Below, one piece after another: positions 584-31,382 of a stretch of 56,148 nt of DNA. Under the pieces are notes generated by a model, which was not told the origin of the DNA, made no database searches, and was given only the letters and a program-made list of their open reading frames with translations. The DNA is from Prorocentrum cordatum. Taxonomy: Eukaryota. The position numbers and the translations under genes are program-made. The stretch covers positions 62,001 to 118,148 of the forward strand of contig CAUYUJ010000109.1 in the NCBI GenBank assembly GCA_963575745.1. The letters are read 5' to 3'. Position 1 is the first letter of the stretch. Every line of letters starts with the position of its first letter.

Positions 584-1486
584 GTGCCGCTTCCTTCGCG
601 TCGGCCCTGCGCCCTGCGAGACTGCGGCCTCGCGCTGAAGCGGATCGCCTGGATCGAGGGGCGGGCGCCCCTGGAAACCCCGTGCGACGGGAACCCCAGG
701 GCCAGGGACGACCTCGCGTGGAAAGGCAACGTGGCCCTCGGAGTACATATCACCAAGCTCAACCCCGACAGTGACTGCCGCGACCTCGATCGCTTCGACC
801 TGAGACGCAGCCCGTGGACGGGAGAAGGCAAAGAGCTCCTCATCCTCGAGTGGCCGACCAGGTACCGCATCAGCATGAAAGGAGAAGGAGGGTCGCAGGG
901 CGCCCAGAACCTCCTGGTCTCGGTGCAGGGCCCCACAGTCGACCAAGTCGCAGAGGTCACGATCAAGTGGCCACCTGCCCTGGGAGGCAACGTTCCGCAA
1001 CGAGAATGCGAGACCCTGAGGATCCCACTGGGCACCAGATATCCGTCCAACAGGTGCATTTTGTCTTACAACTATGGGAAGTACGGCCCGTTCCACGGAG
1101 ACACCTCAAGGGCCCCACCCCCGGACAGAGATGGCGAAGCCCATTGCAGGATTGACCGTGCCCCATCCGAGGTGCAATTCTGGAGGCAAGCCAGTGCCAT
1201 CAGCGACATCTACCACCTGAGCCAAAACCCCGAACAACTCTCCGGGATTCCGCGCAACAACATCGCCTTCCTGCTGGCCTTCCGCAACGCGTCCAAAGAC
1301 GACAAGGCCGCCGCCAACGACGTCACGAGGACAGGCAGAGTCGGCCATTACCTGAGGGCCAGAGCGTCTGCCGCGCTCGAAGCCCCCGTCCCTGACGCCG
1401 ACGTCCAGGCCGTGCGTGCGTCCGACAAGCCCTCTTTCCCTACTCCCCTCCCCTGGAGGTTACCCCCCTCGCCGACGATGAGGTGA
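584..1486 (+). pseudogene. Segment upstream of the helicase core, probably the same polypeptide before a frameshift
   Basis: 300 aa open frame with protein-like composition that overlaps the start of the helicase ORF in another frame. No diagnostic motif. Confidence 0.45.
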
Positions 1487-3300
1487 CCTCGGCCGTGGGC
1501 CATGTCTTCCAGGGGGCCCAATTGAGACCCTCGACAGACACCCTGGAATTAGGAGCAACCGGGCGCGGTCTCAACCCAGACGCCAGACGCGCCCTACTGG
1601 CCACCGTGGCTCACCACGTCACTGTCGTCCACGGCCCGCCTGGCACAGGCAAAACCAAGCTGTCCACGGCCACGCTGGACATCTGGGGGGGCGCCCTCAG
1701 AAGTGTCGCATTGGCAGCCGGACTGAACGCCGCTGCAGACCAACCAGGGCTCGCCATGGCGGCGGCATACCGTCTGAACCAACTGGACTCTCATACCTGC
1801 TTCCCTGACCGTTTCGTCCGGCTCGCCAGGAAAGAGAAGGTCGACGAAGAGCTGACTTGCTTCACCCCGGACGGACACTACCAGAGCGCCACAGGCCGCT
1901 TCCAGCTCCCAGAGGTTTCCGCGCAGGATTTCGTTCAATTCCGCACTGCCCTCATCAACAAGGCGAGAGTGATCGTCTCCACGCACGAAGCGGCTGAGGC
2001 ACTTGGTGGATGCCCCAACCAGCTCGCGCTCTTGGTCATCGACGAGGCGGGCCAGACCACTGAACTCCACTCCACCATGTCCCTGGTCAATCTGGTGCGC
2101 AGCGGTGGCCACCTGATGCGGGTGGGGGATCCCAAACAACTACCCCGCGCGGTCATATCCAAGCTAGCCGCCGACCTGGGCCTCTGCGTCAGCATCTTCG
2201 ACCGCCTACTGCACGCCCTAAGGGGACAGGACTCAGCTGTCATTCAGCTCACGGTGTGCTACAGAAAGCACCCGCAGATTCTAGCCTGGCCGAACTGGGC
2301 TTTCTACAACAACTGCATTACCAGCGGGCTTCTCGCACCCCTCTCAGGCCGTCCCCAGGTCGAAGGTCTTCCTTGGCGCGCCATCGGACCCTGGGACGGC
2401 GACCGGTTGAGCGAACTGGCCAGACTCACGAAGTCCGAAAAAGACGACCTCGAAACGACCCTCGCCCCGCTGCGTCCGACTTCCGCCGACCCGAGCGACA
2501 GGCACCGCTTCCTACTTGTCGACAATCCCTCCCTGGAAGTCACGTCCGGCATACACGCTGGCTACGCGAACCTCCCTGAGGCAGCCCTGGCAGTGGACGT
2601 AGTCCGTTCTCTCGTACCCGCCCTGGACAAAGGGATATCAGTGCACCTAGCCGTCGGGTACCACCTGCAGACAGCGATCCTGGAAGACGGGCGGCCTCAG
2701 GGCCCAAACAACATCACAGGCGTCATCCGACATTCCCGCGGTGGGAAAAGCAAGTGCAAGGGCAGTAAGCGCAAGGGAGGCGAAGGCAACATGATTGACC
2801 GCAGCCGCTCCCCAGCGCCGAGCGTTGGGTCGAGCGAGTTTGACGACCGGCCTGCGGACACCTTCGGATGGGAACGGGTCTTCGACCAACACGACTGTGA
2901 CCGGACCGGAATTAGTCGAAATTTCTTTGGGATTCTGCGCATCGCCCACCAGCACTTCAGAAAAGGCACCCCCAAGCTGGCTACGATCGGCTCAGGCCAG
3001 GGGGGCGAGGCCGACATAGTGATCTTCCTCACCGCCAGATCCAACGGGAGTCACGACTGGGGCTTCATCGATGACTCCAACAGAGTCAACGTTGCGATCA
3101 CCAGGGCCACCCGGTTCGCCGTAGTGATCGGGGACGGACGACTGTTCGCAAGCGCCACCTCGTCAAGACTTCGGGTGCTGTCGGAATGCGGGAGGCTCAC
3201 CAACCTCTGGGTCAGGTTCAAGAAGAAACGCGCCCCAGGCAACCGCCTCCTCCTGGAACCTGGGGCGACCTTCGACCCGACCCACCACCTCGCGACCTGA
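1483..3300 (+). CDS. UPF1/DNA2/NAM7-like superfamily 1B helicase (open segment of a disrupted gene)
   Basis: Motifs in order: Walker A HGPPGTGKT; LNAAAD (cf. SNxAVD); VIDEAGQ; VGDPKQLP; SIFDRL; LTVCYRKHPQILAWPNWAFY; NLPEA; GQGGEADIVI; RSN...GFIDDSNRVNVAITRA...VIGD. The ORF start is a GTG at a frameshift, so it is not the true start. Confidence 0.9.
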   Translation: MTSAVGHVFQGAQLRPSTDTLELGATGRGLNPDARRALLATVAHHVTVVHGPPGTGKTKLSTATLDIWGGALRSVALAAGLNAAADQPGLAMAAAYRLNQLDSHTCFPDRFVRLARKEKVDEELTCFTPDGHYQSATGRFQLPEVSAQDFVQFRTALINKARVIVSTHEAAEALGGCPNQLALLVIDEAGQTTELHSTMSLVNLVRSGGHLMRVGDPKQLPRAVISKLAADLGLCVSIFDRLLHALRGQDSAVIQLTVCYRKHPQILAWPNWAFYNNCITSGLLAPLSGRPQVEGLPWRAIGPWDGDRLSELARLTKSEKDDLETTLAPLRPTSADPSDRHRFLLVDNPSLEVTSGIHAGYANLPEAALAVDVVRSLVPALDKGISVHLAVGYHLQTAILEDGRPQGPNNITGVIRHSRGGKSKCKGSKRKGGEGNMIDRSRSPAPSVGSSEFDDRPADTFGWERVFDQHDCDRTGISRNFFGILRIAHQHFRKGTPKLATIGSGQGGEADIVIFLTARSNGSHDWGFIDDSNRVNVAITRATRFAVVIGDGRLFASATSSRLRVLSECGRLTNLWVRFKKKRAPGNRLLLEPGATFDPTHHLAT

Positions 3301-3478
3301 GTCATCACAACTGTCTCCTGGTCCAGCAACGCCGACGGGGACGACGCGACGAAGGATATGGACACAGCCATCAAGCGCGCCTGCGAGTCCCTGGCCAACA
3401 GCTTCGCGGACAGAGTCGAGGGCGCCGCTCGAGCCAGATCTCAACTGGGGAGCACTGGGGCGTTCCATCCTGGACGCC

Positions 3479-4129
3479 ATGAACAACCTCCTGGTCTCCG
3501 GACTCCGCCCCCGCGAGTTCTCCCTGGCGGACACCCCCAGGGGCCCAGGCAGACTCGACCGGAAAGCCTGGTCCCACCTCGGCTTCCTCTGCGACGCGGC
3601 CATCGGCCTGGACGCCAGCAACCTGGTCTACAACGTGTTCTGGGCCTGTCTGGTGTGGGTGTTGGGCTTGGGCACCCCCAGGGACGACAGCGCGCTCGCG
3701 ATTTCAACCGACTCCCTTCCACCGCGCCCGGCGTCGAAGGGGCGCGGCGCCCGCCCGCGGGCCGGGCGCCAGTGCACACTGGAAGGACTTCTCAGGCAAG
3801 TCCCCCAGACATGGAGCGCGTCCACCAGCAAGTGTTGTCGCCACAGGTCACGCCCCGGCATGAACACCCCGGCGCAATTCCTACCTGCCGGTCACAGAGA
3901 CCCCGAGCTGCGCGACTGGCTGAAGGACACTGACGACCGTCCCCTGGGCACCCGGAAGGCCCGCGCCCTACTGGTCATCATGATGCTCGTGATTAGAGAG
4001 CCCAGGACCTTTCTCTGGCCCTTCGCAAACGCTGAGGGCGCGGGAGACGTCATCGAGGCCGTGCTCGGCCTCTGTATACCTTGGCAAGACGCCCACCTTG
4101 AGTTCCGACAGAAGTTCGCAGCAACATAG
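3479..4129 (+). pseudogene. RNase III-like domain (degenerate)
   Basis: HLGFLCDAAIGLDASNLVY (3575-3631) resembles the RNase III signature RLEFLGDAVLxLxxSxxLY, and GDVIEAVLG (4043-4069) resembles DxxEAxxG. Motif-level match only. Confidence 0.5.
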
Positions 4130-7100
4130 AGTTTCAAGCTGGGCGAGATCACCGACCTACACAGGAGGATCGAGGACGCACTCTCACAAGTCTCCAAGCT
4201 GATGACGGACGCGCACGACCATGACGCAGCCAGACAGGCGGGGTGTCCCCAGACCTGGAAGCTCGAGATGGCCGACTTCAAGCTCAAGGCCCCGATGCCA
4301 GTCCTGGAGGCAATCGTTCCCCCCGCGAACCTCGCCCTTCTCGCAGACTACAAGTGCTCAGTCTGCGCCCTCCACGCGGCTCTGGCCGGAGCCGACTCGG
4401 GCCTGGGAGAAAATAGGGCTGGCGCTGCCCTGATTTACGTTGGGGGGGGGGCACAGCCCTCTCCAAAACCGACCTGTCGCCCCCCGCACCGCCCGCCCCC
4501 GCGCCAGGCGCGAAGCTAGTCCCACCTACCATCGCCGATGACAGGCTACAGTGCGACGAGAAAAACGCCTCCCTCACCTGCGACCGTTGCTAGACGTTCA
4601 AGCTGAAGCACGCCGACGGAGCCTGGGAGGACGACGCGGTCAGGGATCTCCTGGCTAGCAACAGGCCGCAGGCCTACCTGGACGGGAAGAACCTCCGGTG
4701 GTTATGCGAGACCTGCTGTGTTGCTCACCTCAACATCCAGTGCATCCCAAGCCCTGCGGGCGTGACCGTCGCAGCCAGAGTCTCCGACTACACAGCGTGG
4801 CGGAACGGACGTGACAAGGGCCCAGTCGCCCACGCCCTCCCGCCGCCCCCCTGCCCTGGGCCCCTGGGTTACTGGCGCGACCCCATCGCGGGAGAGTCCA
4901 GTCGTCTGAGCGACCTCCTCATGACCTCATCCGGACCTCACTCCCCGCGGCTCGCGAACGCCACGATCCCGGCCATGAGGATTTCGGACGGAAGGTTCGG
5001 CCCCTGCTGGTCTGGAAGGTGGACGCGCCAGCGCTCGGTTGTTTTTTCTGGATGGCTGAGGTCGAGGTCCCGGCCACGGGAAAACAGGCCTCCCCAGCTG
5101 GGGCCAGTGGCCCCTCTCGTGGGTCCAGCGCAAGTGGAATGCCACATGGTGTTGCCGGAGGTGCCTAGTGTACATCTGAAGCGTCGCTCCTGCAACCCTG
5201 GACCACATATGGATCGCGACTCCGGTGACGTCTTCCCGCGGTAGCCGACAGCCCGCCCGCGTCAGACAGCGCAGGCGGACACCAACGAAGTTACCCCTGA
5301 TCTGGCAGCCCTCCTCACACTGGCGTTCGCGGACGCGAACGCCTACGACCCCTATGCCCGCAGCATCCTCCCAGACGGCCCACAGTTGGGTGAGTGAAGG
5401 AGGAGTGGCAGTGGACCGCAGATCGTCCCGAACCAGCGCGCGGTCGCCGACATCCTGGCCCTCCTCCCAGACTTACGTTCTCCAGAGGTCCCCAAGTTAG
5501 GTTGCAGGAACGTTGCAGCTCTATGCCTCGAAGAGGGAAGCGAGCCCAAACATGGGCGGCGCAACAAGCAGGAAGAGGCCCACCACGCTCTGGTCGCCTA
5601 CCTACGGAACTACCACCCAACGCTGGGCGACAAGTGGAGGGACTTCGTCAAGGACTACGACGCCGACATTCCAGCCCCGAGCGACCTTGAGACTTCGTGG
5701 TCGGCTCGCCAGCTTGCCCCTTTCCTGCGTAAACTGTACGGCTCCGAGGTCCCTGACAGCGGACTTCCCGACGGCGCCACCTGGGAGGGCAAGAGGTGGG
5801 CGGCGGCCAGGGTGGTTGAGCACCCGATACGCAGCTCCAAGCACCAACGTGCTTGGACGACCCATCACCAGAGCGTAGCCTCCACCAGAGGGCCGAACCC
5901 CTTCCGCCATGACCTCACTGTCCTCGCCAGCTTCATCGCCAGCCTGGACTCCGGCACACTCGCAGCTACTTCCATCACCACCCTGGCGGAGCAGGACCCC
6001 TCGGCCCCATTCATTGGCGAAGCTAAAACGCCCCTCCTCTGGGGGAAACCACGATAGCCTGGCTACTGCCGAAGCCCGGCCGCGCAGCTGCATCGGCGTG
6101 CGACGCCCCCCCAGCTACCGGTGCCCCCACCTACAGCGCAGCCAGCAGTGGTGTCGGGCTGTCCGCGCCCCGGGCAGACCCCAGCCCCCTGGTGCCAGGC
6201 CCTGACGCGCCAGAGTCCTCTCCCCACGGAGAGGAAGCTTGCTCCCCGACGAGCCCAGCGCCCGCCGTCAAGGCGGACATCGACGGGATAGACTACGACG
6301 AGGACAGGGGCGACGCCGCCCCCCCGACTCCCACACCTCCCCCTGGCGGAACTGCAGACGACTCGGTTGGACCTGAGGGCTCCCCGCCCCCTCCATCGAC
6401 CGGGGCAGCAGACGAAGCAACCGGCGACAGCTTTCCCGACGACCCGCTGGGGGCGTTCGGATCAGACGCGCGACGCCTCAGCGAGGGTCCGCCCGAGCGA
6501 CGCCATCCGAGGGGTGACGTCAGCGCCAGCCCGCCGCCCAAGGTGATGCATGACCCTCCGCAGAGGCACGCCCCTCCTGCTTGCAAGCCGGAGAACAGCA
6601 GCTCACCAGCAGCAGCGTCAGACAGTCGCCCTCCCTCCCCCCCGTGGTGGCGCGATCGTCACTTCCAGCCAGGCAGCTCCAGTCAGCCCGCCCCTGGCCC
6701 TCAGCCCCAACCCCAGACAGCCAGCTCGAGACCGCCACTCGCCAACCCCCGCGAATGGGGCTCGAAGCAGGTCTTTGACGACCTTGTCGACCCCATCGGA
6801 GGGGGTCCCATGTGCAAGAAGCGGTTGGGCAATGTCGACCTCGACAAGATCGGGGAAACATCCGGAAACGAGATCCCCGCCTCTAGAAGACCTTGGGGGG
6901 AGTCTTCAGCAGCATCTGGCATGCCTGCACCCGCATGCACCCAGCAGGGGCCAACGGCCCGAAAGCGACCGCGCGCTGAACCCTGAAAGCACATGCCGTG
7001 CCTTCCTTGACGCCTGGAAGCGCCGCGGGTATGATGCTTGCGAGATGGGCCGCAAACTTGGGCTCCAGGTCAGATGGGATCGGGGGCGCGACAAGTGGTC

Positions 7101-7705: not shown

Positions 7706-8145
7706 GACGGCGGCCCCCGCTTGTTCAACCTAGACGCGACTGCCACAGTACTCGGTGTGGCCGACGTTGGACTTGCAGGAAGTGCTCCCTCCCTGGTGCC
7801 ACTCCCTGCCCAGCCCTCGTTGCTCCCTGTCTTCGGGAACAAGGACAGCGGGCTGCTGACAATACTGGCTCGTGGATCACCGCCGGGGCCGTGGTCCACC
7901 TGTCCCCCGCGGCCTTCGGCCCTCTCCAAATCAACAGACGATGGCCCCCGTTTGCTTCACCCTAGACGCGACTGCTGCAGCACTTGCTGTGGCCGTCGCT
8001 GGTCTTGCAGGCAGTGCTCCTGTCCTGGTGCCACTCCCTGCCCAGCCCCCGCTGCTCCCCGCCCCTTGGGAACACGGGCAGTGGCCTGCTGACGCTATTG
8101 GCTCGTGGGCTACCGCTGGGGCCGTGATCCACCTGTCTCCCATCG
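7706..8145. repeat. Diverged tandem duplication, ~231 bp unit, 2 copies
   Basis: CCTAGACGCGACTGC...CCTGGTGCCACTCCCTGCCCAGCCC...GGCTCGTGG...GGGGCCGTG.TCCACCTGTC occurs in units starting ~7706 and ~7937. Confidence 0.85.
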
Positions 8146-8779
8146 GCCTCAGGCCTGCTGTAGTTGTTTTCACTTTTGGCGCGTCTTCCCCCGCGCCCGC
8201 GGGCGCCCCGCGCCGTGTCGGGGTGTCCCCCTCCCTGGCTGGGCTGGTGTCGTCCCCCACCACCCTGGTCTCACCACTTTCCGCCCGAGTCGCGGTTTCT
8301 CCATCCTTCGGTGGGTCCCATGGTCGTCTGTGGTTCAGCCTATATTGTCCGTCTTCCCGCCACGCCGCGGTTGCAACCCTGGTTTCTGTACCGGGTTCTC
8401 CCCGTGTTGTTGGTGCTCGCTGTCGCCACGCTCGGTGTGCTGACTACGGGCGCGTGTTCCGTCCGTTTTTAGGGCTTTTGGTGTGCGACTTTGCTGGCGC
8501 CACCCCATGTGCGCGTTCGTGGTGACCCGCGCCGTTTTGGCCGCGGGGCAGCCTGGCTGCACTCGTGTGTCCTGCTGCCGTTGGACTTTGCGGCTCCGGC
8601 TACCCTGGTACTTCGCAGCCTGCCAACGCTCACGCCCGCACCGGGCCCCAATTCGACTTCCGTTAGTCGGTTCACTTGGCTGCGGCCACCCTGGTACCTT
8701 CGCTGTAATCTGGGGGCTTGCGCCCTTGCATCTAATTGCTCGTCTTCTTTCCTGGTCGCCGGTGTCCCATCCTGCAGCT

Positions 8780-8994
8780 CCCGACGCGTTGCGTACGTGC
8801 ACCCTGGCAGTACTGGTATCCAGCTTCAGCCAGTCCCTTCACTCGTCGGTTCGCCGCCGAGGTGCTGCGTGAGGCTCCGCTCCGCCGCTTTAGGTGTGGC
8901 TGCGCCCCGTCGCTTTAGGTTAATTCGTCTCTGCGTGCCCCGCTTCTACTGGACCCGCCGCTGGCGCGCTCGCCTGCGACCGCTGACTAAAAAG
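8780..8994 (+). mobile_element. 3' end of a target-primed (non-LTR-type) retroelement, ending in a short A tract before TATCCCCACCAG
   Basis: CGCCGCTGGCGCGCTCGCCTGCGACCGCTGACTAAAAAG nearly matches 54520-54559 and is related to 54855-54890. The 5' boundary is undetermined. Confidence 0.6.
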
Positions 8995-9426
8995 TATCCC
9001 CACCAGCCCATCCAGAAACGACGCCCAGGCGAGTAGAGGGTCGTCCTGAGGGGCTTTACGGCGTATTGGGTGCCTCGGGGGGGCCTCCTGGGGGCCTCTT
9101 GGGGCCTCTTGGGGCCATCTTGGGGCCTCTTGGGGCCTCCTGGGCGCTTCTTGGGGCCATCTTGGAGGACATCGATCAAAGAAAAGGGGGAACTTGAATT
9201 GGGGTTGTCCCTTCAGGAGGCCAGCATGGGGCCCAAACCTCAAGAAAACCAATGATTTGGGCTTCCTTGCCGAGGCCGTTTTGGACGCCCTAACACCTGC
9301 CCGCCCCTCCCGTCCAGGTCCACGGGGAGGGGGTAGGGGGATGGGTAAACCCTCCCCGAAACGGCAGAGGGAGGGGTGGAAGAGGAAACGCCCTAAACAC
9401 CCGACGCCCAGAGGGCTGGTGGGATT
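8995..9426 (+). mobile_element. Dispersed non-autonomous repeat (Helentron/HINE-like), copy A
   Basis: 5' ATCCCCACCAGCCC and 3' GGGCTGGTGGGAT (9413-9425) are near-perfect inverted repeats; CCAGAAACGACGCCCAGGCGAG; internal GGGGCCTCTT-type repeats; GCCC-AGA-GGGC hairpin. Confidence 0.6.
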
Positions 9427-10088
9427 CCGTTCGGCGGCCCGACAAGTCGTGCGCCGCGGCGCCCCACGGCCAATGCCACCGCGCGCGGCAACGTCGGCCT
9501 CCACGGGCGCAGCGGGCAGGCGTGCCCCTGGTTCTCCAACGGGTGATCGGGTGCGACGCCTGCGATGGCGTGGCTCTCGGGTTGATAACGATCGAGGGTG
9601 CGCACGGCTGGACGGGCCGATCGCCCGGCACGCGCGAGCAGGAGGACGATCGGCGGCGCGAAGAGGAGCGAGGGCACCATGCCTCCGGGTTCCGTGCGGA
9701 CGCGAACCCGACCCCAGACTGGGGGTTCGACCGCGACGCCCCCTCCTTCGAGCCGCCGTCCAAGGAGCTGCCGAGCTGCATGGCTGGATGGGAAACGCGC
9801 CAGATCCCTGTCGGTGTAGCGGAGAGTCGGACCTTCCCGATGTCGAGATCGTGCGGACCGACTCCAGGTCCCGTCGCGGCTGCCAGAGGGGCGCTTTGTG
9901 GTCGGCGGGCGGTGGAATGGCGAGGGGAGCAGCCAGGTGTGGGTGTCTTGCTTGGACTTTGAGACCTTGCGGCCAGCGGCGGTGCTTCTGGACGGATAGC
10001 CCTGACCCGTGTTTTTCTTGCGAAGTCGTGCCCGTTCCCCGAACTCAGCCGCGCATTTGCACCAGCTCGTCGCTTCCGTCTCCCTCTA

Positions 10089-10090
<2 letters not shown>

Positions 10091-10145
<55 letters not shown>

Positions 10146-10178
10146 CTGATGATGATGACGATGATGATGATGACGATT

Positions 10179-10247
<69 letters not shown>

Positions 10248-10300
10248 GTGGTGGTGATGGTGATGGTGATGGTGATGATGATGGTGATGGTGATGATGAT

Positions 10301-10333
<33 letters not shown>

Positions 10334-10373
10334 GTGATGGTGATGGTGATGGTGATGGTGGTGATGATGATGG

Positions 10374-10466
<93 letters not shown>

Positions 10467-10523
10467 GGAGGAGGGGAGGAGGAGGAGGAGGAGGAGGAGG
10501 AGGAGGAGGATGAGGAGGAGGAG
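10091..10523 (+). repeat. (GAT)n/(GGT)n then (GGA)n microsatellite
   Basis: Directly visible. Confidence 0.97.
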
Positions 10524-11599
10524 GTTAAACCTTCTACAGGTTCGCGGATGGATGGCGGTACCTTTTGAAATGCGCACTCTCGCTTGGGACTTCCGCAATT
10601 CCTGTCTCAGCAGGAGAGGGTTTACAAAGGTTGCGCGAGTGCGGACTGTACTTCTTCGAGACACAATTTCCGCCAAGTGCCCTTTCGTAGTTTACATCCT
10701 TAGTGCCTCGAACTTTCGCTCTCTCGCCTGTGGCCTTTTTTCGCGACGTGTAATCCCAACATAATTTTGAGACTTGTCATGGAGGGAGGGCGGCTCGCCC
10801 TGAATAGTTGGCTGGTTATTGGCTGTAATAACTTCAGAGGGGCAGGTCTCAAACACAGTGTTTTGGTGCGTGATGTGGTAGAGTTTACACGTGGCGATCG
10901 ATTCGCATGGTAGCAGTTTAAATCCTCGCCAAGGCGAAATTTTCTGCGCCCTACCGCTGCGCAGCGGGACTGGTCAGTCCGCCTTTCCCTTCTCCCGAAC
11001 TCGAGCCCTACTGGGTCCCGAACTCTGCGCCTGCCCAAAAGGGCCTCACCATTCCAGCTGGCGTTCTTCGTGGTGAGCAAGACATGCTTGCGCGGAAGGG
11101 TGCACTGCGATGTCACTGATATGTGCTGGGTCTGCTCTTGTACTTCTCTCCCCCTCATCGTCCCCCATCCATCCTCCTTCCTTCCTCCGTCCCTCCTCTC
11201 CCTTCCTTCCTCCCTCACTCCCTTTCACTCCCCTCCCCAGTCACCGAAAATCTCCAGTGATGCCCCGAGGACCCCTGGGGGTTCCCAGAGGCCTCTGAAG
11301 GACTCTTGAGGCTTCGGAGGCCCGGAACGGGCCAGAATCGTAAGAAAGTCTCGCTCCTTGGCCCTCCCCCCTCGATCCTCGCCCCTCCATCCCCCCAGTC
11401 GTCGTGGCAGCCGCCGCGGCCGCCCCCGCCCGCCGCCGCCGGCCGCCACCGCAGCGGCGGGCCTTGGCCGCGGGCCTCGGCCGCCAGCCGACGCCAGCGG
11501 CTGTGTTGCGCGCACTGGGCGGCGACGGCGACGGCGGGCGCCCGCGCGCTCGCGCGCGCGTCTCAGGCACCCGCTCCTGGGCGCGGCGGGTCCTTTTCT

Positions 11600-14165: not shown

Positions 14166-15284
14166 AGTCACCTATGCAGCACTCGAGTCTCTGGATGGTC
14201 AGGGACCGCCATCGACAACAGTCGGAAACCGATGCAGACGCCGACCAGGTGCGCTGCGCCCGCGAGGTGTGCCGCGCGTGCTAGGGCCCCCCCACCCTCC
14301 CTGTCAAATAGCAATGCAACATAGTTCAAGATTTTGTCGTAACGTGCGCTAGGCGTTCGTTTTGACAGGGATGGTGGGCCTGCATGTGCCAGGCAATATG
14401 ATGCCCCACCACCGTCGCTGAGACCGCGCTACAAAAAAACGCGGGGCGCCCGAACATGAGCAATCTTTTGCCGCAAATGGTATTGCACATTGTTCTTTCG
14501 CATGTACGTTGGTGGTTTGTTGATGTTGGCCCTGGTCAGGGTCCTGTGGAGCGGGGAAGGGGGTGTATAATGACCAGGAGCAGTGGTACATACTCCCCGA
14601 TTCGGAAGAAGGGGGGCGGAGCAACGAGCTCGCTGAAGCAGCTACGAAGAAGAACGCGCAGAACGGGTCGTGCGTTCTAGATCCAGCTCCGTGCGGACCG
14701 TTGTGCCATCCCCTCCTCACCTCATCGGCGCCGTGCCTGCGAGCGCCGCAGGACCTTCGAGAGCACTGCGGTGCGCGGCGCTCTGCACACTCTGAGAGCG
14801 CACGCGAGAGCGGCAGAACCCGCTCCTGACGCTGCGGCCGTCGGATAGCGCAGCAGGTCTTGAGCATCGCCGCGCCCATCTCGAGGAAGCGCAAGCCAAG
14901 GCGCGTGGTTTAGCGGCGGGTCCCGTGTTTCACGCCAGTAGGAATCAGCGCGCACTGTCGACAAATCAGGCGGTGTGTGCTTCATGCTTTCGGGGGAGGT
15001 GCGGATGGGCGCAGAGTTGTGATGTCTTCCCCCCCCACCCGCCCGCGAGCCAGATCCACGAATCTGTGATTCATGTTCGTGTGTGCTTGCCAATCAACAC
15101 CAGCATGATTGTGGTTCGCACAGGGCTTGTTATCACCACCGAGACCGAACTGGGTAAGGAGCAGTAGGGTACCCAGGGAGGACAGTTGTGACGGTGAGTA
15201 GGAGACGGGGGAGCAGGAACGGCCAGGAGGAATTATGTGAGGGGGGAGGAAGAGGGGACGTGTGCGGGGTAGGATATATATACG

Positions 15285-15937
15285 TGGATGATTCAGATGA
15301 TGATGACGATGTTGAGGATGGTTGTGAGGAAGACGACGGCCATTTCGATCATGGTGTTGATTCTGTTGTTTCTGATGCCGCTGATGCTAGTGATGCATTT
15401 GAGGACGATGCCGTTGAGGATTATGAGGATGTATGTGGTGATGATGGTGATGATGGCGATGATGACGATGACGACGACGATAACGAGGACGATGATGATA
15501 CTAATGATGAGGATGATGACGACGATGTTAATGCTGATGATGATGTCGATGTTGATGATGCTGATGCTGTTGATGCTGATGCTGATGCTGATGCTGTTGA
15601 TGCTGATGCTGATGCTGATGGTGATGATGATGATGATTGTTGTGGTGGTGTTGACGTTGCTGCTTGCTGCTGCTGCTGATGATTCTGATGATGATGATGC
15701 TGATGCTGCTGCTGATGATGATGATGATGAGGATGATGATGATGGCTGTGATGATGATGCTCATCATATTGATGGTAATGTCTCTTAGCTCGCTGATGGT
15801 GGCCGTTTGACGATATAATGGTGATGATGATTGCGATGGCGACGACGTTGATAAGGATTGGCATGCTGATGTTATTGATGATGATGGTGATAGTGATGAT
15901 GATGATTCTGATGAAAATGACAATGCTGATGTGAATT

Positions 15938-15987
<50 letters not shown>

Positions 15988-16274
15988 TGGCGATGTCGAA
16001 GCGGATGACGATGACGATGATGCTGCTGGTGATGATGATAATGATGATGATGATGATATTGATGATGGCGATGGTGCTCATGCTGGTGATGATGAAGATG
16101 AAGATGACGATGAAGATTGTGATGGCGAAGATGATGTTGGTACCTATGCTGGTGATGCTGATGATGCTGATGATGGTGATGATACTCTCAATGAGGATGA
16201 TGCTGTCAATGCGGATGATGATGACGATGATGATATTGATGGTGATGACGATGACGATGATGCTGCTGAACACC

Positions 16275-16310
<36 letters not shown>

Positions 16311-16311
16311 C

Positions 16312-16355
<44 letters not shown>

Positions 16356-17053
16356 AGGATTATGGTAGCGATTATGGTGATGCTCAGGTTGCGGTTGATG
16401 TTGATGTTTAGCTTGTTGTCGGGGATGCCGATGGTTGTGATGCTGATGATGCTGCTGCTGCCAATGATGGCGACGAAGAACGGCGACGATGACGATGACA
16501 ATGATGGTGATGATCATGGTAATGAGGATGACGATGCTGATGATGATATGATGATGATGATGACGGTGGTGGTGCTGGTGGTGATGGTGATGATGAAGTT
16601 GACGATAATGATGACCACGACGATGATGAGGATAATAATCATGATGACGATGATAATGAGAAGGTCGAGAACGATGACGATGATGATAATGCAGATGAGG
16701 TTGCTGTCAATGATGATGATGATGCTGATGATGATGCTGATGATGACCATGCTTGCTGATTGATGATCGGTGGTAGGTTGATAATTTGTGGTCCATGATA
16801 GTGATGATCACGATGATGATGATGCTGATGATGATGATAATGATGCAGAATATGATGATGCTGATTCTGATGATGATGGTGATGATGATGATGATGATGA
16901 TGACCTTGACGATGATGATGACAATGATGACGAATATAATGATGTTAACGACTATGATATATGATGATGATGCTGATGCTGATGCTGATGCTGATGCTGA
17001 TTATGATGCTGATTATGATGATGAAGACGGGATGACGGATGGATTATAATGAC

Positions 17054-17128
<75 letters not shown>

Positions 17129-17136
17129 GGTGGTGG

Positions 17137-17175
<39 letters not shown>

Positions 17176-17204
17176 CGATGTTGATCATGATGTTGCTGAT
17201 GATG
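15285..17204 (+). repeat. Degenerate (GAT)n low-complexity tract
   Basis: Directly visible; includes a segment duplicated at 18512-19250. Confidence 0.95.
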
Positions 17205-17848: not shown

Positions 17849-18407
17849 CTGCAAAAGGTGGCAGCTTCCTCCCTGGCTCCTACACGCCCTGGGCGCTCTT
17901 CTGAGCGAGCGGCACGCCCAAACCTGCAAGGGCAAGTGCAGGAGCAAAGCAAGACGCCTGCTCCGCTCGATCGGCATGGGCGGTACGGCCTCCCCGCTTC
18001 TCTGGTGCATGGGCTACGACCCGCTGATAGAAGCCGTCGCCAACATTGCCGGTGACGCCAGCCCCGCATATGTCGACGACTTAGCGGCTCTTCTCGCATC
18101 TACGGGCCAGGTGCTACGTGCGGCCATTGCCCGCCCTCCCCTGGCTCGCCAAGGTGGCTGGCCTCCAGGTCGAAATTCGCATATGCAGAGGGATCCACAT
18201 GCCCTTCGACAGCCGCGTCACTCTCGCCCTGGCTGAAGTGCCCGTCACCCTGGAAGGTCGGGGCAACGAGATCTGCATCGCGGGCCGGCCCCCCGCCCTC
18301 ATCCAGGCCCTCGTCCTCGGCTTGCTCGGCCCAGCCTCGGCGGCTGCTTGCCGCCCCTGGCATGCCCCCTGCTTCTTCAGCTTCAAAACTGCACTGGTGC
18401 CCGCGAG
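17849..18407 (+). pseudogene. Reverse transcriptase fragment (non-LTR type), 5'-truncated and frameshifted
   Basis: RSIGMGGTASPLLWCMGYDPLIEAV...PAYVDDLAAL (YVDD at 18069-18080); continues in another frame (LAKVAGLQV...) and is cut by a GAT tract at ~18408. Confidence 0.8.
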
Positions 18408-20150
<1,743 letters not shown>

Positions 20151-21262: not shown

Positions 21263-21518
21263 GAGGCGGCTCCCTCCTGCTACTCTCTCTCTCCTCCTCC
21301 TCCTCCTCCTGCTCCTCCTCCTCCTCCTCCTCCTCCTTCTCTCCTCCTCCTTCTCTCCTCCTCCTCCTCCTCCTCCTCCTCCTCCTCCTCCTCATCCATC
21401 CCCCTCTGCCCTCCCGCCCTCCCCCATCCCTCGTTGTCGCTACGTCCCCCCGCCCCACATCTCTCATCCCTCCCTACTTCCTCCTCCCCTCTCCTCCCTC
21501 ATCCATCATCGAGGGCCA

Positions 21519-22968
21519 CCCACCCGACCCGTCCCGCCCGACCCGACCCGACCCGTCCCGCCCTTCAGGGTCCGCCCGCCCGCCGGACCCGTCCCGCCCG
21601 TTAGGGTACTCGCGTGCCAAGTCGATGGTGCATCATACTTTTATGTTCCGCCCGCCCGACCCGACCCGTCCCGCCCGTCAGTGTCCGCCCGCCCGACCTG
21701 GCCCGTCCCGCCAGTTAGGGTCCGCCCGCCCGCCGGACCCGTCCCGCCCGTTAGGGTACTCGCGTGCCAACTCGATGATGCATCATACTATAATGTCCCG
21801 CCCGCCCGACCCGACCCGACCCGCCCGTTAGGGTCCGCCCGCCCGACCCGACCCGTCCCGCCCGTCAGGTCCGCCCGCCCGACCCGTCCCGCCCGTTAGG
21901 GTACTCGCGTGCCAACTCGATGGTGCATCATATCTTTAATGTCCCGCACGCCCGACCCGACCCGTCCCGCCCGTTAGGGTCCGCCCGACCCGACCCGACC
22001 CGTCCCGCCCGTTAGGGTCCGCCCGCTCGCCGGACCCGTCCCGCCCGTTAGCGTATTCGCGTGCCATCTCGATGATGCATCATTAGTTTATATCCCGCCC
22101 GCCCGACCCGACTCGTCCCGCCCGTTAGGGTCCGCCCGCCCGATCCGACCCGGCCGCGTTTTAGGGTCCGCTGGCCCGCCGGACCCGTCCCGCCCGTTAG
22201 GGCATTCGCGTGACAACTCGATGGTGCGTCACATTTGATAATGTCCCGCCCGCCCGACCCGACCCGACCCGCCCGTTAGGGTCCGCCCGCCCGACCCGAC
22301 CCGTCCCGCCCGTCAGGGTCCGCCGGCCCGCCGGACCCGTCCCGACCGTTAGGGTACTCGCGTGCCAACTCGATAGCGAATCATTCTTTAATGTCCCGCC
22401 CGCCCAACCCAACCCGACCCGCCCGTTAGGGTCCGCCCGCCCGACCCGACCCGTCCCGCCAGTTAGGGTCCGCCCGCTCGCCGGACCCGTCCCGCCTGTT
22501 AGGGTACTCGCGTGCCAACTCGATGGCGCATCATTCTTTAATGTCCCGCCCGCCCAACCCGACCCGACCCGCCCGTCAGGGTCCGCATGCCCGACCCGAC
22601 CCGTCCCGCCAGTTAGGGTCCGCCCGCTCGCCGGACCCGTCCCGCCCGTTCGGGTACTCGCGTGCCAAGTCGATGGTGCATCATACTTTAATGTCCCGCC
22701 CGCCCGACCCGACCCGTCCCGCCCGTTAGGGTCCGCCCGACCCGATCCGTCCCGTCCGTTAGGGTTCGCCCGCCCGCCGGGCCCGTCCCGCCCGTTAGGA
22801 TATTCGCGGGCCAACTCGACGATGCATCCTACTTTACTGTCCCGCCCGCCCGACGCTCCCGGACACGACCCGCCCGTCAGGGTCCGCCCGCCCGACCCGT
22901 CCCGCCCGTTAGGGTACTCGCGTGCCAATTCGATGGCGCATCATACTTTAATGTCCCGCCCGCCCGAC
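21519..22968. repeat. Satellite, ~150 bp unit, 10 copies
   Basis: Core GTTAGGGTACTCGCGTGCCAACTCGATGGTGCATCATACTTTAATGTCC recurs at ~21601, 21751, 21896, 22048, 22197, 22349, 22499, 22649, 22795 and 22909, separated by CCCGCCCGACCCG subrepeats. Confidence 0.93.
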
Positions 22969-24103
22969 CCCTCATCCCTCCCTCGTCCATCACCTCATCC
23001 CTCCCTCCCTCTCCTTCACCCTCCCCCTCACCTCCCTCCCTCATCCATCCGTCCCTCTCTCCTTCTTCGTTCCTTCCTGCAGACTCCCTCATTTCTCATC
23101 CTTCCCTTCCTCCCTCCCTCCGTCCCTCCCTCCCTTAATTATCTCTCCGTCCCTCGTCCTTCCGCCATCCCTCATCCTCTCTCGTCTATCCAACCCTCCT
23201 CCTCCCTACTTCCTCCCTCATCTCTCATTCCATCCATCATCCCGCCCTCCCTCGTCTTCGTTCTCGTCGCCGTCGTCGTCCTTCTTGCCGTCGTTATCGT
23301 GCCCCTCTCCGTCCTCCGTGGCGTGTGCAAGCCAGCCCAGGCTCCCCGTGCCGCTTCCTTCCACCAGCGCATGGTCGACCGAACCCCTCTGGCCACCGTT
23401 GTCGCAGCCATTCCTGACCGATTCGCGCGGCACACGAGGCTGGCCCATCTCCCTGCAGACCTTCTCCTTCTCCCCCTCCCCCTCCCCCTCCTCCTCCTCC
23501 TCCTCCTCCTCCTCCTCCTCCTCCTCCTCCTCCTCCTCGTCCTTCTGGCCCTTTCCTCGTCGGCAGCCCCGCCGAGCTCGCGGCGGGAGCCGCCGCTCCT
23601 CGGCGCCACCCCGGGGCTCGCGCCCCTGGGCGGACTCCCAGCGGGAGCGGCCCCGCCACTGGGAGGGCTCTTCCCTCTTCTCTCTTCCCTCTCCCTTCCT
23701 CCTCCTCCTCCTCCCTCCTCCCGCCGGGCAGGGCGGGATTTGAACGCTACCAAACTCTGTTTTTGATCGTTCGGCTCCACACATGCGTCCCAAATGGCCA
23801 CAGACGGCGTAGCGGAACATGACGCTTCCTCCCGTCGAGTCGATCTGTTTCCCCTTTTCCTCCCTCCTTCCTCTGGGCCCTCTCTGCCGCCGCGCTCTTC
23901 CTGCCGCGCCTTCCCGCTGCCACTCCCCGCTCCCCGCTCGTGCCCTCTCTCTCCGCCGCCGATGCGCCGTGCTTCCCGGGAGGCCACAGCGAGCCGCCGG
24001 TGCCGCAGATGAGCGACGATGAGCTCGTCAAGGAGCGGCTGCGGCCTGGAGCCAGCCGGGGTGCCTGAGGCGACCCAGCATTCGGTTCCGATCAGTAGGA
24101 TTA

Positions 24104-28661: not shown

Positions 28662-29662
28662 ACGCTTCGCGTATCCCCACCAGCCCATCTCAAAACAGCA
28701 ACTCTAGCGAAGCATGCCGACAGTCGTGTTTTTCAGGCGTGTTTCCGCCTGCCCCCACATATCTCCCCTGTTCCTCCTTCCTCCCGCCTCCTTGTACATC
28801 CTCCTTGTGGTGGGAGCGGGAGAAGGACGAGGCGGAGGAGGAGGGAGAGAAAGCGCTCCTCGTGGTTTGAGTCGTTTGGGGTTTCTCGTCCTGGTGTGAG
28901 TCGTTCGGGCCCTTCTTCCTGGTGTGAGTCGTTCGGGCTCTTCGTGGTGTGAGTCGTTCGGGCTCTTCGTCCTGGTGTGAGTCGTTCGGGCTTCTCGTGG
29001 TGTGAGTTGTTCGGGCCCCTCGTCCTGGTGTGAGTCGTTCGGGCCCCTCCTCCTGCCCGTCCAGAAACGACGCCCAGGCGAGTAGAGGGTCGTCCTGATG
29101 GGCTTTTCGGCGTCTTGGGTGCCTCGGGGGGGCCTCTTTGGGCCGTTTGGGATCCTCTTGGGGGCCTCCTGGGGGCCTCTTGGGGCCATCTTGGGGCCTC
29201 TTGGTGCCTCCTGGGCGCTTCTTGGGGCCATCTTGGAGGAAATCGATCAAAGAAGAGGGGAGCTTTAATTAGCGCTGCCCCCTCAGAAGGCCAAAATGGG
29301 GCCAAAACCTTAGTAAAATCAATGATTTTGGCTTGAAAGAAGAGGGGAGCTTTAATTAGCGCTGCCCCCTCAGAAGGCCAAAATGGGGCCAAAACCGTGG
29401 TAAAATCAATGATTTTGGCTTCAAAGAAGAGGGGAGCACTTTTCTGCCTCCCCCCGTCGGGGCCAGAATCCTCGTGAGGGGTGTCGTTTTTTAGCCCCCC
29501 CAGGAGTCGAAAAAGACCCCCCCCAACGACCCGCGGGGCGCCCTCTCCAGGCCCAGGGGGAGGGGGTAGGGGGAGGGGCAAACCCCTCCCCGAAGGGGAA
29601 GAAGGGGGTTGAGAACAGAGCGGGCTCTCTAAACCACTCACGCCCAAAGGGCTGGTGGGATT
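28662..29662 (+). mobile_element. Dispersed Helentron/HINE-like repeat, copy B, with an unoccupied TATCCCCACCAG site
   Basis: ACGCTTCGCGTATCCCCACCAGCCCATC at 28662; CCAGAAACGACGCCCAGGCGAGTAGAGGGTCGTCCTGA at 29061; 87 bp internal tandem repeat (29249, 29336, 29423); 3' GCCC-AAA-GGGCTGGTGGGATT. Confidence 0.6.
28859..29048. repeat. 25-28 bp minisatellite, ~7 copies
   Basis: TGGTGTGAGTCGTTCGGGC repeated. Confidence 0.9.
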
Positions 29663-30396: not shown

Positions 30397-30428
<32 letters not shown>

Positions 30429-30532
30429 AAGAAGAAGAAGTAAAAGTAGAAACACAAGTTCAATTATACGCAGACACATAAGTATAAGTATAATTATACG
30501 TATACGTAACATTGTATCTTCAATAATAATAT

Positions 30533-30609
<77 letters not shown>

Positions 30610-30770
30610 AGTAGTAGTAGTAGTAGTACTAGCCGTGGTAGTAGTAGTAGTAGTAGGAGTCGTTGTAGTCGTAGTCGTGGTCGTAGTCGTTATCGAAGTT
30701 GCAGTAGTCGTACTCGTAGTTGTAGTAGTCGTAGTAGTAGTCGTAGTCGCAGTAGTAGTCGTAGTAGTCT

Positions 30771-30806
<36 letters not shown>

Positions 30807-31001: not shown

Positions 31002-31074
<73 letters not shown>

Positions 31075-31271: not shown

Positions 31272-31323
<52 letters not shown>

Positions 31324-31382
31324 TAGTAGTAGTACTATTAGTAGTAGTAGTGGGTGTGGTAGTAGTAGTAGTAGGAGTAGTT

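What the first reader, a model, noticed from the sequence alone, without database searches (positions are those of the whole stretch)
1483..4129. UPF1-type SF1B helicase apparently fused to an RNase III-like domain
Seen: a full set of UPF1/DNA2-like helicase motifs. After one in-frame TGA (3298) and one frameshift (~3470), the reading continues into HLGFLCDAAIGLDASNLVY and, ~150 codons later, GDVIEAVLG. Known: RNase III domains use LEFLGD and DxxEAxxG, and Dicers pair RNase III with an SF2 (RIG-I-like) helicase, not SF1B. Here the C of FLCD is TGC, one base from GGC (G), but the conserved E is replaced by G. Inference: an ancestral polypeptide coupling a 5'->3' RNA helicase to a dsRNA nuclease or dsRNA-binding domain, possibly a non-canonical Dicer-like enzyme or an element-encoded RNA-silencing suppressor. 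I do not recognise this architecture.
Basis: partly seen in the sequence, partly recalled or inferred. Interest (0 to 1): 0.82.

Follow-up and report, generated by a model that had tools for sequence, protein, structure and literature searches.

The report
Decayed giant helicase gene copy
This is a broken copy of a very large, repeated gene, probably algal, that joins a UPF1-type helicase to a conserved domain of unknown fold; the proposed RNase III (Dicer-like) identity of that domain rests on one short motif and no other test supported it.

Summary
Window 1396-3297 encodes a full UPF1-type SF1B helicase (Pfam AAA_11/AAA_12; nearest solved relatives are a Sen1-like helicase, UPF1 and IGHMBP2). 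After TGA 3298 and a +1 frameshift at the GGG run 3420-3422 (not ~3470), a conserved region follows, holding HLGFLCD... (3575-3631) and GDVIEAVLG (4043-4069).

Relatives with open frames (P0003, 2945 aa; P0005) carry the helicase and this region in one ORF, so the fusion is ancestral.

The window copy is a pseudogene. It is collinear with P0003 residues 311-2367 over 635-5979, with five frame changes and four in-frame stops. One DNA run holds 80 short contigs 90-100% alike, which indicates a multi-copy family.

The RNase III reading is not supported:
- 0 of 46 members hit a Pfam RNase III family, and a PDB profile search found none.
- hhalign probability is 2-2.5%, resting on the DxxEAxxG motif alone. 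Motif 1 does not align.
- The catalytic Glu position is Gly in 16 of 16 members, and the signature Gly is never Gly.
- Two low-confidence AlphaFold models match no RNase III.

Best reading: a decayed copy of a lineage-restricted giant helicase protein with a novel Cys/His-rich helical domain.

The parts
635..1396 (+). N-terminal conserved region of the broken giant ORF (frame 2), upstream of the helicase core
   Evidence: tblastn: P0003 residues 311-556 align here, with no stop inside. Pfam finds no family.
1396..3297 (+). UPF1-type SF1B helicase (frame 1) with motifs I-VI; a frame change 2>1 lies between 1396 and 1456
   Evidence: Pfam AAA_11/AAA_12; PDB UPF1/Sen1/IGHMBP2; P0003 570-1129 aligns to 1456-3180; motif coordinates.
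3298..3300 (+). In-frame TGA (nonsense lesion)
   Evidence: P0005 and P0015 align across it; P0015 has G at this position.
3301..3419 (+). Linker after the helicase, still in frame 1, conserved ('...ANSFADRVE')
   Evidence: 44% identity to P0015 over 3142-3420.
3420..3422 (+). GGG run: +1 frameshift (frame 1 > frame 2)
   Evidence: Alignments to P0005, P0015 and P0021 switch frame here. One contig of run X1 has one letter fewer at 3420. Sequence shown.
3479..3680 (+). Block 1 of the downstream domain: 'DRKxWSHLG[FY]LxDxxLG[LI]DA[SG]NLVY' (motif at 3575-3631)
   Evidence: Conserved in 14-17 relatives. Predicted helical, but pLDDT is 39-60.
3716..3940 (+). Variable insert with 'LPPRP' and two conserved Cys (3773, 3833); absent from short-form relatives P0024 and P0035
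   Evidence: Alignments; Cys columns 14 of 15 each; low pLDDT.
3950..4126 (+). Block 3: 'LV[IL]MML..REPR.FLWPF...E..GD[VI][IL]EAVLG[LI]C.P' (GDVIEAVLG at 4043-4069)
   Evidence: Most conserved part: A 25/25, P 25/25, E 24/25, G 24/25, D 21/25. pLDDT is 59-75.
4127..4129 (+). In-frame TAG (nonsense lesion; relatives have W or F)
   Evidence: P0001 and P0002 read W here and continue.
4130..4450 (+). Continuation of the domain (frame 2): long helices, 'AHHH', 'CPxTW', 'CSVC'
   Evidence: tblastn of P0001 over 3908-4450; best-predicted part of the model, pLDDT 79-88; conserved His/Cys columns.
4441..4450 (+). G10 run: frame change 2>1
   Evidence: P0001 and P0003 switch frame at 4444-4450; sequence. 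A homopolymer sequencing error cannot be excluded.
4444..4989 (+). CxxC-rich region (frame 1) with in-frame TAG at 4591-4593
   Evidence: P0003 1561-1736 aligns here; stop listed.
5087..5287 (+). Further homologous piece (frame 2) with an in-frame stop at 5177
   Evidence: P0003 1798-1866; stop listed.
5578..5979 (+). Further homologous piece (frame 1), the last part matched to the full-length relative
   Evidence: P0003 2218-2367.

Best explanation
Window 635-5979 (probably from before base 1 to about 8 kb) is a decayed, non-functional copy of a lineage-restricted, multi-copy giant ORF. The one full-length relative found, P0003, has an open frame of 2945 aa.

Shown: the ancestral protein carried, in one chain, an N-terminal region, a UPF1-type SF1B helicase and, about 120 residues further on, a conserved alpha-helical region rich in Cys and His (blocks 'WSHLGFLxD..LGLDASNLVY' and 'REPRxFLWPF...GDVIEAVLGxCxP', then 'AHHH', 'CPxTW', 'CSVC').

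Inferred mechanism: the helicase is an NTP-driven 5'>3' translocase on RNA or DNA, as in UPF1, Sen1 and IGHMBP2. The downstream region is a non-catalytic accessory module of a fold not yet described, possibly metal-binding, that holds nucleic acid or a partner protein. It is not a working RNase III nuclease.

I judge a selfish repeated element somewhat more likely than an expanding host gene family, about 55:35. The family behaves like a repeat, with many diverged and broken copies.
For: Helicase: Pfam and PDB hits.

Fusion in relatives with open frames: P0003 and P0005.

Collinearity and lesions:
- P0003 residues 311-2367 map to 635-5979 in frames 2>1>2>1>2>1.
- In-frame stops lie at 3298, 4127, 4591 and 5177.
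- The window lacks 11 residues that relatives have after 'AMNNLL'.

Multi-copy family:
- 47 cluster representatives at E<=1e-3, 21 of them at <=1e-10, mostly short fragments.
- Run X1 gave 80 laid contigs: 8 at >=99%, 15 at 95-99% and 57 at 90-95% likeness. One has one letter fewer at the 3420 frameshift site.

Not RNase III:
- Pfam 0 of 46 members (window ORF also none).
- No RNase III in the PDB by single sequence (0 hits at E<=10) or by profile (its one hit is a dehydrogenase).
- hhalign probability 2.0-2.5%.
- Block 1 does not find the signature motif.
- The E41-equivalent is G in 16/16, and the signature G is present in 0/16.
- Conserved Cys/His columns.
Against: The DxxEAxxG motif matches RNase III exactly and is the best-conserved part of the domain: D 21/25, E 24/25, A 25/25, G 19/24. 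None of 100 block-shuffled RNase III profiles reached the real hhalign score (21.8 against a maximum of 20.3). With a short-form member as master, hhalign can thread both motifs collinearly, but with confidence near 0.

The structural tests were made on low-confidence models (pLDDT 60.0 and 53.7), so they cannot exclude an RNase III-like fold. Only 4 sequences span both motifs.

For the 'selfish element' part: no transposase, reverse transcriptase or integrase was found. The 5' end lies outside the window, so no termini could be examined. Metal binding is inferred from conserved Cys/His only.
Confidence: 0.7

Rival explanations
1. The downstream region is a very divergent RNase III-like fold that has lost part of the catalytic set (Glu41-equivalent is Gly). 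It would act as a dsRNA-binding or pseudo-nuclease module beside the helicase.
For: Two motifs lie in the RNase III order: L-x-F-L-x-D...L..Y and then G-D-x-x-E-A-x-x-G. The D45-equivalent is D in 15/17, the D114-equivalent D in 21/25 and the E117-equivalent E in 24/25. hhalign puts GDVIEAVLG on the ADTVEALIG column block, P 0.018-0.024, and 0 of 100 shuffles reach the score. Short-form relatives (P0024, P0035) lack the insert, which brings the motifs about 90-110 residues apart.
Against: The motif match is the observation that raised the idea, so it is not independent support. hhalign probability is only 2-2.5%. Block 1 alone aligns elsewhere (P 0.12). No Pfam or PDB sequence or profile hit. 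G is invariant at the E41 position and the signature G is never present. No dsRBD or second RNase III domain was found in P0003.
Confidence: 0.12
2. It is (or was) an active RNase III: a non-canonical Dicer-like enzyme or an element-encoded silencing suppressor.
For: Same motif evidence as above.
Against: One of the four acidic residues that RNase III uses (recalled from E. coli numbering: E41, D45, D114, E117) is Gly in 16 of 16 members, so this is not a lesion of this copy. 4 of 25 members also have G for D114. All profile and fold tests gave nothing.
Confidence: 0.02
3. The family is an ordinary but rapidly expanding host gene family (for instance an RNA-surveillance or defence helicase) rather than a mobile element, and this locus is simply one dead paralogue.
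For: No transposase, RT or integrase in P0003 or the window. A paralogue is present in a Pyramimonas sp. protein set of EukProt. GC content (0.64-0.67) is even over 1-10 kb. A solved ZNFX1-type helicase is among the PDB relatives.
Against: There are many diverged and broken copies in one sample, and most database members are short fragments. The locus sits among dispersed and tandem repeats.
Confidence: 0.3
4. It is an endogenous viral element, either an RNA-virus polyprotein or a giant-virus gene.
For: One very long ORF with an SF1 helicase. Weak Viral_helicase1 hit (E 0.0084, below cut-off) and a coronavirus ORF1ab helicase at E 6.9e-5.
Against: Cellular UPF1/Sen1-type helicases score far better. 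No polymerase or capsid domain. The IMG/VR scan gave 30 pattern matches and 0 relatives. BFVD gave 0 matches at E<=0.001.
Confidence: 0.05
5. The stop and frameshift lie in introns and the gene is intact.
For: The host is a eukaryote (no prokaryote genome is held; the only named relative is eukaryotic).
Against: Relatives' proteins align without gaps through TGA 3298, up to the very base run of the frameshift, and through TAG 4127, where they have W. The stretch between TGA and frameshift is itself conserved coding sequence. At least nine lesions lie over 5.3 kb.
Confidence: 0.03

Closest known systems
UPF1-like SF1B helicases (UPF1/NAM7, Sen1, IGHMBP2/SMUBP-2, DNA2, ZNFX1)
   Same: All helicase motifs are present, Pfam AAA_11 and AAA_12 are over cut-off, and the best PDB matches are in this group.
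   Different: About 28% identity to its own full-length relative P0003 over the helicase. A Lys/Gly-rich stretch lies between the two Pfam helicase matches here, in P0003 and in P0005. It is embedded in a ~2900-aa protein whose other parts match no known family. This copy is broken.
Class 1 RNase III (E. coli rnc and the viral RNase III genes used as reference here)
   Same: The DxxEAxxG motif is present and conserved. An F-L-x-D...L..Y string lies upstream in the right order.
   Different: No profile match. hhalign probability is 2-2.5%. The Glu of the signature motif is Gly in 16/16 and the Gly is never Gly. The motifs are 151 residues apart here. No dsRBD. The fold is not confirmed.
Dicer / Dicer-like enzymes
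   Different: From recall, Dicer has an SF2 RIG-I-type helicase, PAZ and two RNase III domains. Here the helicase is SF1B, no PAZ, dsrm or second candidate domain was found in P0003, and the single candidate is unsupported.
Helicases followed by zinc-binding tails (ZNFX1, IGHMBP2; architectures recalled)
   Same: A UPF1-like core followed by Cys/His-rich sequence. ZNFX1 and SMUBP-2 are among the solved relatives of the core. Conserved Cys/His columns follow the core here.
   Different: No NFX1-type, R3H or AN1 zinc-finger family is detected by Pfam. The conserved blocks are new.
Helitron RepHel (helicase-bearing transposon protein; recalled)
   Same: One long ORF with an SF1B helicase in a repeated, decaying element.
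   Different: From recall, Helitrons use a Pif1-type helicase with a Rep/HUH nuclease. Here the helicase is UPF1-type and no Rep, PIF1 or Helitron family was found.

Membership tests
UPF1-like SF1B helicase (Pfam AAA_11 + AAA_12) | Profile match over the curated cut-off to both halves of the core | tested here: met
   AAA_12 82.6 bits and AAA_11 58.2 bits, cut-off 27 each. The same is seen in P0003.
UPF1-like SF1B helicase (Pfam AAA_11 + AAA_12) | Walker A (motif I), DExx (motif II), GDxxQLPP (III), motifs V and VI | tested here: met
   GPPGTGKT, VIDEAGQ, VGDPKQLP, SGQGGEAD and VNVAITRA at the coordinates. The motif names are recalled.
UPF1-like SF1B helicase (Pfam AAA_11 + AAA_12) | Nearest solved relatives belong to the family | tested here: met
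   20 distinct PDB sequences, all of them UPF1-type helicases: Sen1-like, UPF1, NAM7, SMUBP-2, SEN1, DNA2, ZNFX1 and a coronavirus ORF1ab helicase.
UPF1-like SF1B helicase (Pfam AAA_11 + AAA_12) | ATP-driven 5'>3' unwinding | not testable with these tools
   Needs biochemistry on an intact member.
UPF1-like SF1B helicase (Pfam AAA_11 + AAA_12) | Intact reading frame at this locus | tested here: not met
   Four in-frame stops and five frame changes over 635-5979.
RNase III (Pfam PF00636 / PF14622) | Profile match to an RNase III family | tested here: not met
   0 of 46 members at E<=10. The window ORF has none at E<=1. The PDB profile search found none at E<=10.
RNase III (Pfam PF00636 / PF14622) | Signature motif ERLEFLGD with the catalytic Glu and Asp | tested here: not met
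   Glu position: G 16/16. Gly position: Y6 F4 C2 T2 H1 D1, G 0/16. Asp position: D 15/17. Block 1 does not align to the motif.
RNase III (Pfam PF00636 / PF14622) | Second motif DxxEAxxG with catalytic Asp and Glu | tested here: met
   D 21/25, E 24/25, A 25/25, G 19/24. hhalign aligns it to the RNase III block.
RNase III (Pfam PF00636 / PF14622) | Profile-profile similarity over the domain | tested here: inconclusive
   hhalign probability 2.0% (33 columns) and 2.5% (115 columns), P 0.024 and 0.018. 0 of 100 block shuffles reach the score. The reference profile had only 28 viral or E. coli sequences and no Dicer or Drosha.
RNase III (Pfam PF00636 / PF14622) | RNase III alpha-helical fold | tested here: inconclusive
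RNase III (Pfam PF00636 / PF14622) | Dimer (or tandem domains) forming one processing centre | not tested
   No complex prediction was run. Only one candidate domain is present per protein.
Dicer-like | SF2 RIG-I-type helicase, PAZ, two RNase III domains, dsRBD (recalled) | tested here: not met
   The helicase is SF1B. No PAZ, dsrm or Ribonuclease_3 in P0003 or in the window ORFs.
Transposable element | Many diverged copies in one genome | tested here: met
   80 contigs of run X1 laid on 1400-4600: 8/15/57 in the >=99 / 95-99 / 90-95% bands. That these come from one genome is assumed from a single run.
Transposable element | Transposase, integrase or reverse transcriptase | tested here: not met
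   Pfam finds only helicase families in P0003 and the window ORFs.
Transposable element | Terminal repeats and target-site duplication | not testable with these tools
   The 5' end lies beyond the window start, there is no second copy in the window and no genome is held.

The most novel reading that the evidence does not exclude
The conserved region is a strongly diverged RNase III-type module (Asp, Asp and Glu kept; one Glu lost) fused to an SF1B helicase in a repeated, probably selfish, giant ORF. That would be a helicase plus RNase III architecture built independently of Dicer, and it could bind or process double-stranded RNA for the element or against host silencing.
Probability: 0.1. Interest if true: 0.8.

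Novelty: new variant of a known kind. Interest (0 to 1): 0.35.

Why it matters
A real RNase III domain here would be the first SF1B-helicase/RNase III fusion I know of. Three full-text searches turned up no description of one. It would bear on how Dicer-like machines can arise. The evidence does not carry that claim.

What remains is a smaller result. The family is a lineage-restricted giant helicase protein of about 2900 aa, repeated and decaying. It has a well-conserved Cys/His-rich helical domain that matches no Pfam family, no solved structure and no viral model. Such families are raw material for finding new mobile elements or defence systems in poorly studied algae. The conserved GDxxEAxLGxCxP block is a handle for collecting the family.

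For annotation, the locus should be marked as a pseudogene or repeat, not as a Dicer-like gene.

Tried and rejected
Genome and database access:
- No whole genome is held, so paralogues could not be collected from the assembly.

Searches for more relatives:
- The search for homologous proteins with 3479-4126 gave 2 hits only. With 3479-4516, 'longer', it gave none. With P0003 at full length it gave only P0003 itself plus a plant helicase over 2% of the query.
- IMG/VR scan with A2: 30 pattern matches, 0 relatives.
- Metagenome scan with A3: 3 loci (L003-L005). They are bacterial CMD-family proteins that share 'MMLVMREP' by chance and are not relatives. Alignments A1 and A2 were too loose for some scans.
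- Of the 47 HMMER hits, P0037 and P0038 are repetitive, unrelated proteins.

Fold and feature searches:
- ESM Atlas: no usable hit for the window domain or for P0001. One call failed because P0003 is too long.
- Foldseek PDB: no RNase III and nothing at E<=0.001 for either model.
- BFVD: 0 matches at E<=0.001.

RNase III reference set: the genome-contig scan with E. coli RNase III returned only 96-100% identical enterobacterial genes, useless for a profile. The profile was built from E. coli rnc plus viral-contig ORFs instead.

Expression: no RNA holder is listed among sequencing runs.

P0048: it looks by eye like the start of a LINE reverse transcriptase upstream of block 3. Neither Pfam nor the PDB confirmed this.

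Intron explanation: rejected.

Earlier findings of this scan: nothing.

Literature: three searches were made. For some searches I saw only titles and starts of abstracts in the listings; one search listed no paper. Passages of PMC9756366 were read. None describes this family. Its supplements were not looked at.


Full report
**What is in the sequence**

On the + strand the first 8-9 kb of the window (GC 0.64-0.67) are covered by long open stretches that change frame several times.

ORF 1396-3300 (634 aa) is a UPF1-type SF1B helicase:
- Pfam AAA_12 at E 3.6e-23 and AAA_11 at E 1.4e-15, both over the cut-off of 27 bits.
- 20 distinct PDB sequences match at E<=1e-3. The best is a 5'-3' RNA helicase-like protein (8ftm_A, 2.1e-19), followed by UPF1, SMUBP-2, NAM7, SEN1, DNA2 and ZNFX1.
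- Motifs I to VI are all present.

HLGFLCDAAIGLDASNLVY is at 3575-3631 and GDVIEAVLG at 4043-4069, 151 codons apart. The Cys codon is TGC at 3590-3592.

**The fusion is real and ancestral**

An exhaustive HMMER search with window 3479-4126 (216 aa) found 47 cluster representatives at E<=1e-3, 21 of them at <=1e-10. At least two weak ones, P0037 and P0038, are repetitive unrelated proteins.

P0003 (2945 aa) aligns to query residues 6-204 at its residues 1241-1440, and has AAA_11/AAA_12 at about 612-1114. P0005 (513 aa) has AAA_12 at 140-197 and the region at 330-450. So relatives with open frames carry the helicase and the downstream region in one ORF.

P0005 and P0015 align across TGA 3298, where P0015 has Gly. 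They then change from frame 1 ('...ADRVE') to frame 2 ('PLEPDLNW...') at the GGG run 3420-3422.

**The locus is a pseudogene of a giant ORF**

tblastn of P0003 against the window gives a collinear chain:

| P0003 residues | Window | Frame |
|---|---|---|
| 311-556 | 635-1396 | 2 |
| 570-1129 | 1456-3180 | 1 |
| 1245-1563 | 3506-4450 | 2 |
| 1561-1736 | 4444-4989 | 1 |
| 1798-1866 | 5087-5287 | 2 |
| 2218-2367 | 5578-5979 | 1 |

That is five frame changes. In-frame stops lie at 3298, 4127, 4591 and 5177.

TAG 4127 replaces a Trp that P0001 and P0002 keep, and both read on into what the window encodes at 4130-4450. Relatives also have 11 residues that the window lacks after 'AMNNLL'. The change at 4441-4450 lies in a G10 run and could be a sequencing error. 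The others are not in long homopolymers.

An intron explanation fails. The proteins of relatives align through the lesions, and the stretch between TGA 3298 and the frameshift is itself conserved.

**It is a repeated family**

- No second copy lies in the window.
- One public DNA run (X1, coded) holds 26% of the sampled words of 1400-4600.
- Laid on that stretch it gives 80 short contigs: 8 at >=99%, 15 at 95-99% and 57 at 90-95% likeness. The summed depth is highest over the GDVIEAVLG block.
- One contig has one letter fewer at 3420, the site of the window's frameshift.
- Most database members are fragments of 60-190 aa.
- The only relative with a name comes from a Pyramimonas sp. set in EukProt: 90% identity in the best segment, 72% over 125 aa. 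The host is therefore more likely a prasinophyte-like green alga than a dinoflagellate. That rests on one label.
- Only one full-length relative was found.

**Is the downstream region RNase III? Sequence tests**

- Pfam finds no family in the window ORF at E<=1, and no RNase III family in any of 46 family members at E<=10.
- A single-sequence search of the PDB finds nothing and a family-profile search finds no RNase III at E<=10.
- For a profile-profile test I built an RNase III reference. It combined E. coli rnc with 117 ORFs from viral contigs that carry the signature peptide. All 118 were recognised by phmmer with E. coli RNase III at E<=1e-3. These were cut to the domain (115 sequences) and thinned to 28 at below 70% identity.
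- hhalign of the family alignment (42 rows) against it gives probability 2.0%, P 0.024, score 21.8 over 33 columns. GDVIEAVLG is placed on the ADTVEALIG block.
- With the short-form member P0024 as master, a collinear 115-column alignment appears, but at probability 2.5% and per-column confidence near zero.
- The reversed profile scores 9.6. A hundred block-shuffled profiles score median 12.3 and maximum 20.3, so 0 of 100 reach 21.8. One run threw an error, so one value may be a repeat.
- Block 1 alone aligns to another part of the RNase III profile at P 0.12, not to the signature motif.

The only signal is the 9-residue motif that prompted the hypothesis. It is not an independent confirmation.

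**Residue test**

| E. coli RNase III position (numbering recalled) | Residue in family members |
|---|---|
| Glu41 | Gly 16/16 |
| Glu38 | Ser 13/14 |
| Signature Gly44 | Y/F/C/T/H/D; Gly 0/16 |
| Asp45 | Asp 15/17 |
| Asp114 | Asp 21/25, Gly 4/25 |
| Glu117 | Glu 24/25 |

The missing Glu is a family trait, not a lesion of this copy. The remark that TGC is one base from GGC has no bearing.

**Fold tests**

- AlphaFold2 on 3479-4126 with alignment A1 gave mean pLDDT 60.0 and pTM 0.33.
- On the read-through 3479-4516 (X at the TAG) with the cleaner alignment A6, it gave pLDDT 53.7 and pTM 0.38. A better-defined helical part covers residues about 141-260 (pLDDT 59-88). Block 1 scores 39-60.
- Foldseek against the PDB found nothing at E<=0.001 for either model, and no RNase III among the weaker rows.
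- BFVD gave nothing at E<=0.001. The ESM Atlas gave nothing usable.

Only four sequences span both motifs, so the models cannot settle how block 1 packs on block 3. The fold question stays open rather than answered in the negative.

**What the domain looks like instead**

- Block 1: 'DRKxWSHLG[FY]LxDxxLG[LI]DA[SG]NLVY', predicted as a helix pair.
- A variable insert follows, with 'LPPRP' and two conserved Cys. It is missing in P0024 and P0035.
- Block 3: 'LV[IL]MML..REPR.FLWPF...E..GD[VI][IL]EAVLG[LI]C.P'.
- Long helices come next, with conserved 'AHHH', 'CPxTW' and 'CSVC'.

The conserved Cys/His columns (window residues 99, 119, 199, 228, 246, 248, 256, 293, 296) suggest metal binding. This is inference only.

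Downstream, P0003 and the window share a CxxC-rich stretch. No other known domain is found in P0003, by Pfam or PDB sequence search.

**Most likely explanation**

The window holds a dead copy of a lineage-restricted, multi-copy giant protein. Its recognisable engine is a UPF1-type 5'>3' helicase. The polarity and substrate are inferred from the family.

The conserved downstream region is a new helical, possibly metal-binding accessory module, not a working RNase III.

Whether the family is a selfish element or a fast-expanding host family cannot be decided here:
- Many decayed copies speak for a selfish element.
- No transposase, RT or integrase was found.
- The termini lie out of reach because the 5' end lies before the window start.
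- No viral relatives or hallmark genes were found.

**Novelty and verdict**

The helicase is an ordinary member of a known superfamily. The architecture and the downstream domain are undescribed as far as Pfam, the PDB, BFVD and three literature searches show.

I rate it a new variant of a known kind, of moderate interest. The exciting reading, an SF1B helicase fused to an RNase III-type module, keeps about a 10% chance. It needs an HHpred-grade search and a confident structure of an intact member.

Noticed in passing
window 8852-9430, 29049-29334, 54417-56112: A dispersed repeat present three times in the window (77-83% identity). It includes arrays of a 10-11-base unit of the GGCCTCTTGGG type. 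It starts about where the helicase element's coding-like sequence ends.
   Followed up: partly
window 21392-22970: Tandem array of a 150-base unit, at least 8 copies, 87-92% alike.
   Followed up: no
window 30300-35600; also 10000-10600, 15200-17200, 19600-20000, 52900-53200: Very long tracts of degenerate trinucleotide repeats (AGT-, GAT- and GAG-type). The 30-34 kb stretch has GC 0.41-0.43 and a strong GC skew.
   Followed up: no
window 16250-17192 and 18410-19344: A 0.95-kb direct duplication at 92% identity.
   Followed up: no
window 18117-18962 (-): Weak match to PFF1_TM (vacuolar membrane protease transmembrane domain), E 4.6e-07, 30.1 bits, just under the 32.3-bit cut-off. It is the strongest of only two Pfam hits among the 33 large ORFs scanned between 8.9 and 56 kb; the other is a short CDC45 stretch at 27205-27816 (-), E 0.0004, far under its cut-off.
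   Followed up: no
window 7706-7915 and 7937-8149: A tandem duplication (82% identity) inside the proline-rich tail downstream of the matched part of the giant ORF.
   Followed up: no
window 3618-3959: One contig of run X1 joins 3618 to 3959, skipping 340 bases with 5 other letters between. This is roughly the insert that the short-form relatives P0024 and P0035 lack. The joint has only 30 letters on its shorter side, so it is weak.
   Followed up: partly
P0048 residues about 470-600: Upstream of its block 3, this 874-aa database protein shows by eye motifs like the start of a LINE-type reverse transcriptase (recalled). This would suggest a chimeric gene model over nested repeats. Pfam and PDB searches did not confirm it.
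   Followed up: partly
L003-L005: Bacterial carboxymuconolactone decarboxylase (CMD) family proteins share the string MMLVMREP and 38-41% identity over about 52 residues with block 3 of the family. Judged to be chance after pattern pre-selection.
   Followed up: yes
window 4441-4450: A run of ten G exactly where the reading frame changes from 2 to 1. This one lesion could be a homopolymer sequencing or assembly error rather than a mutation.
   Followed up: no
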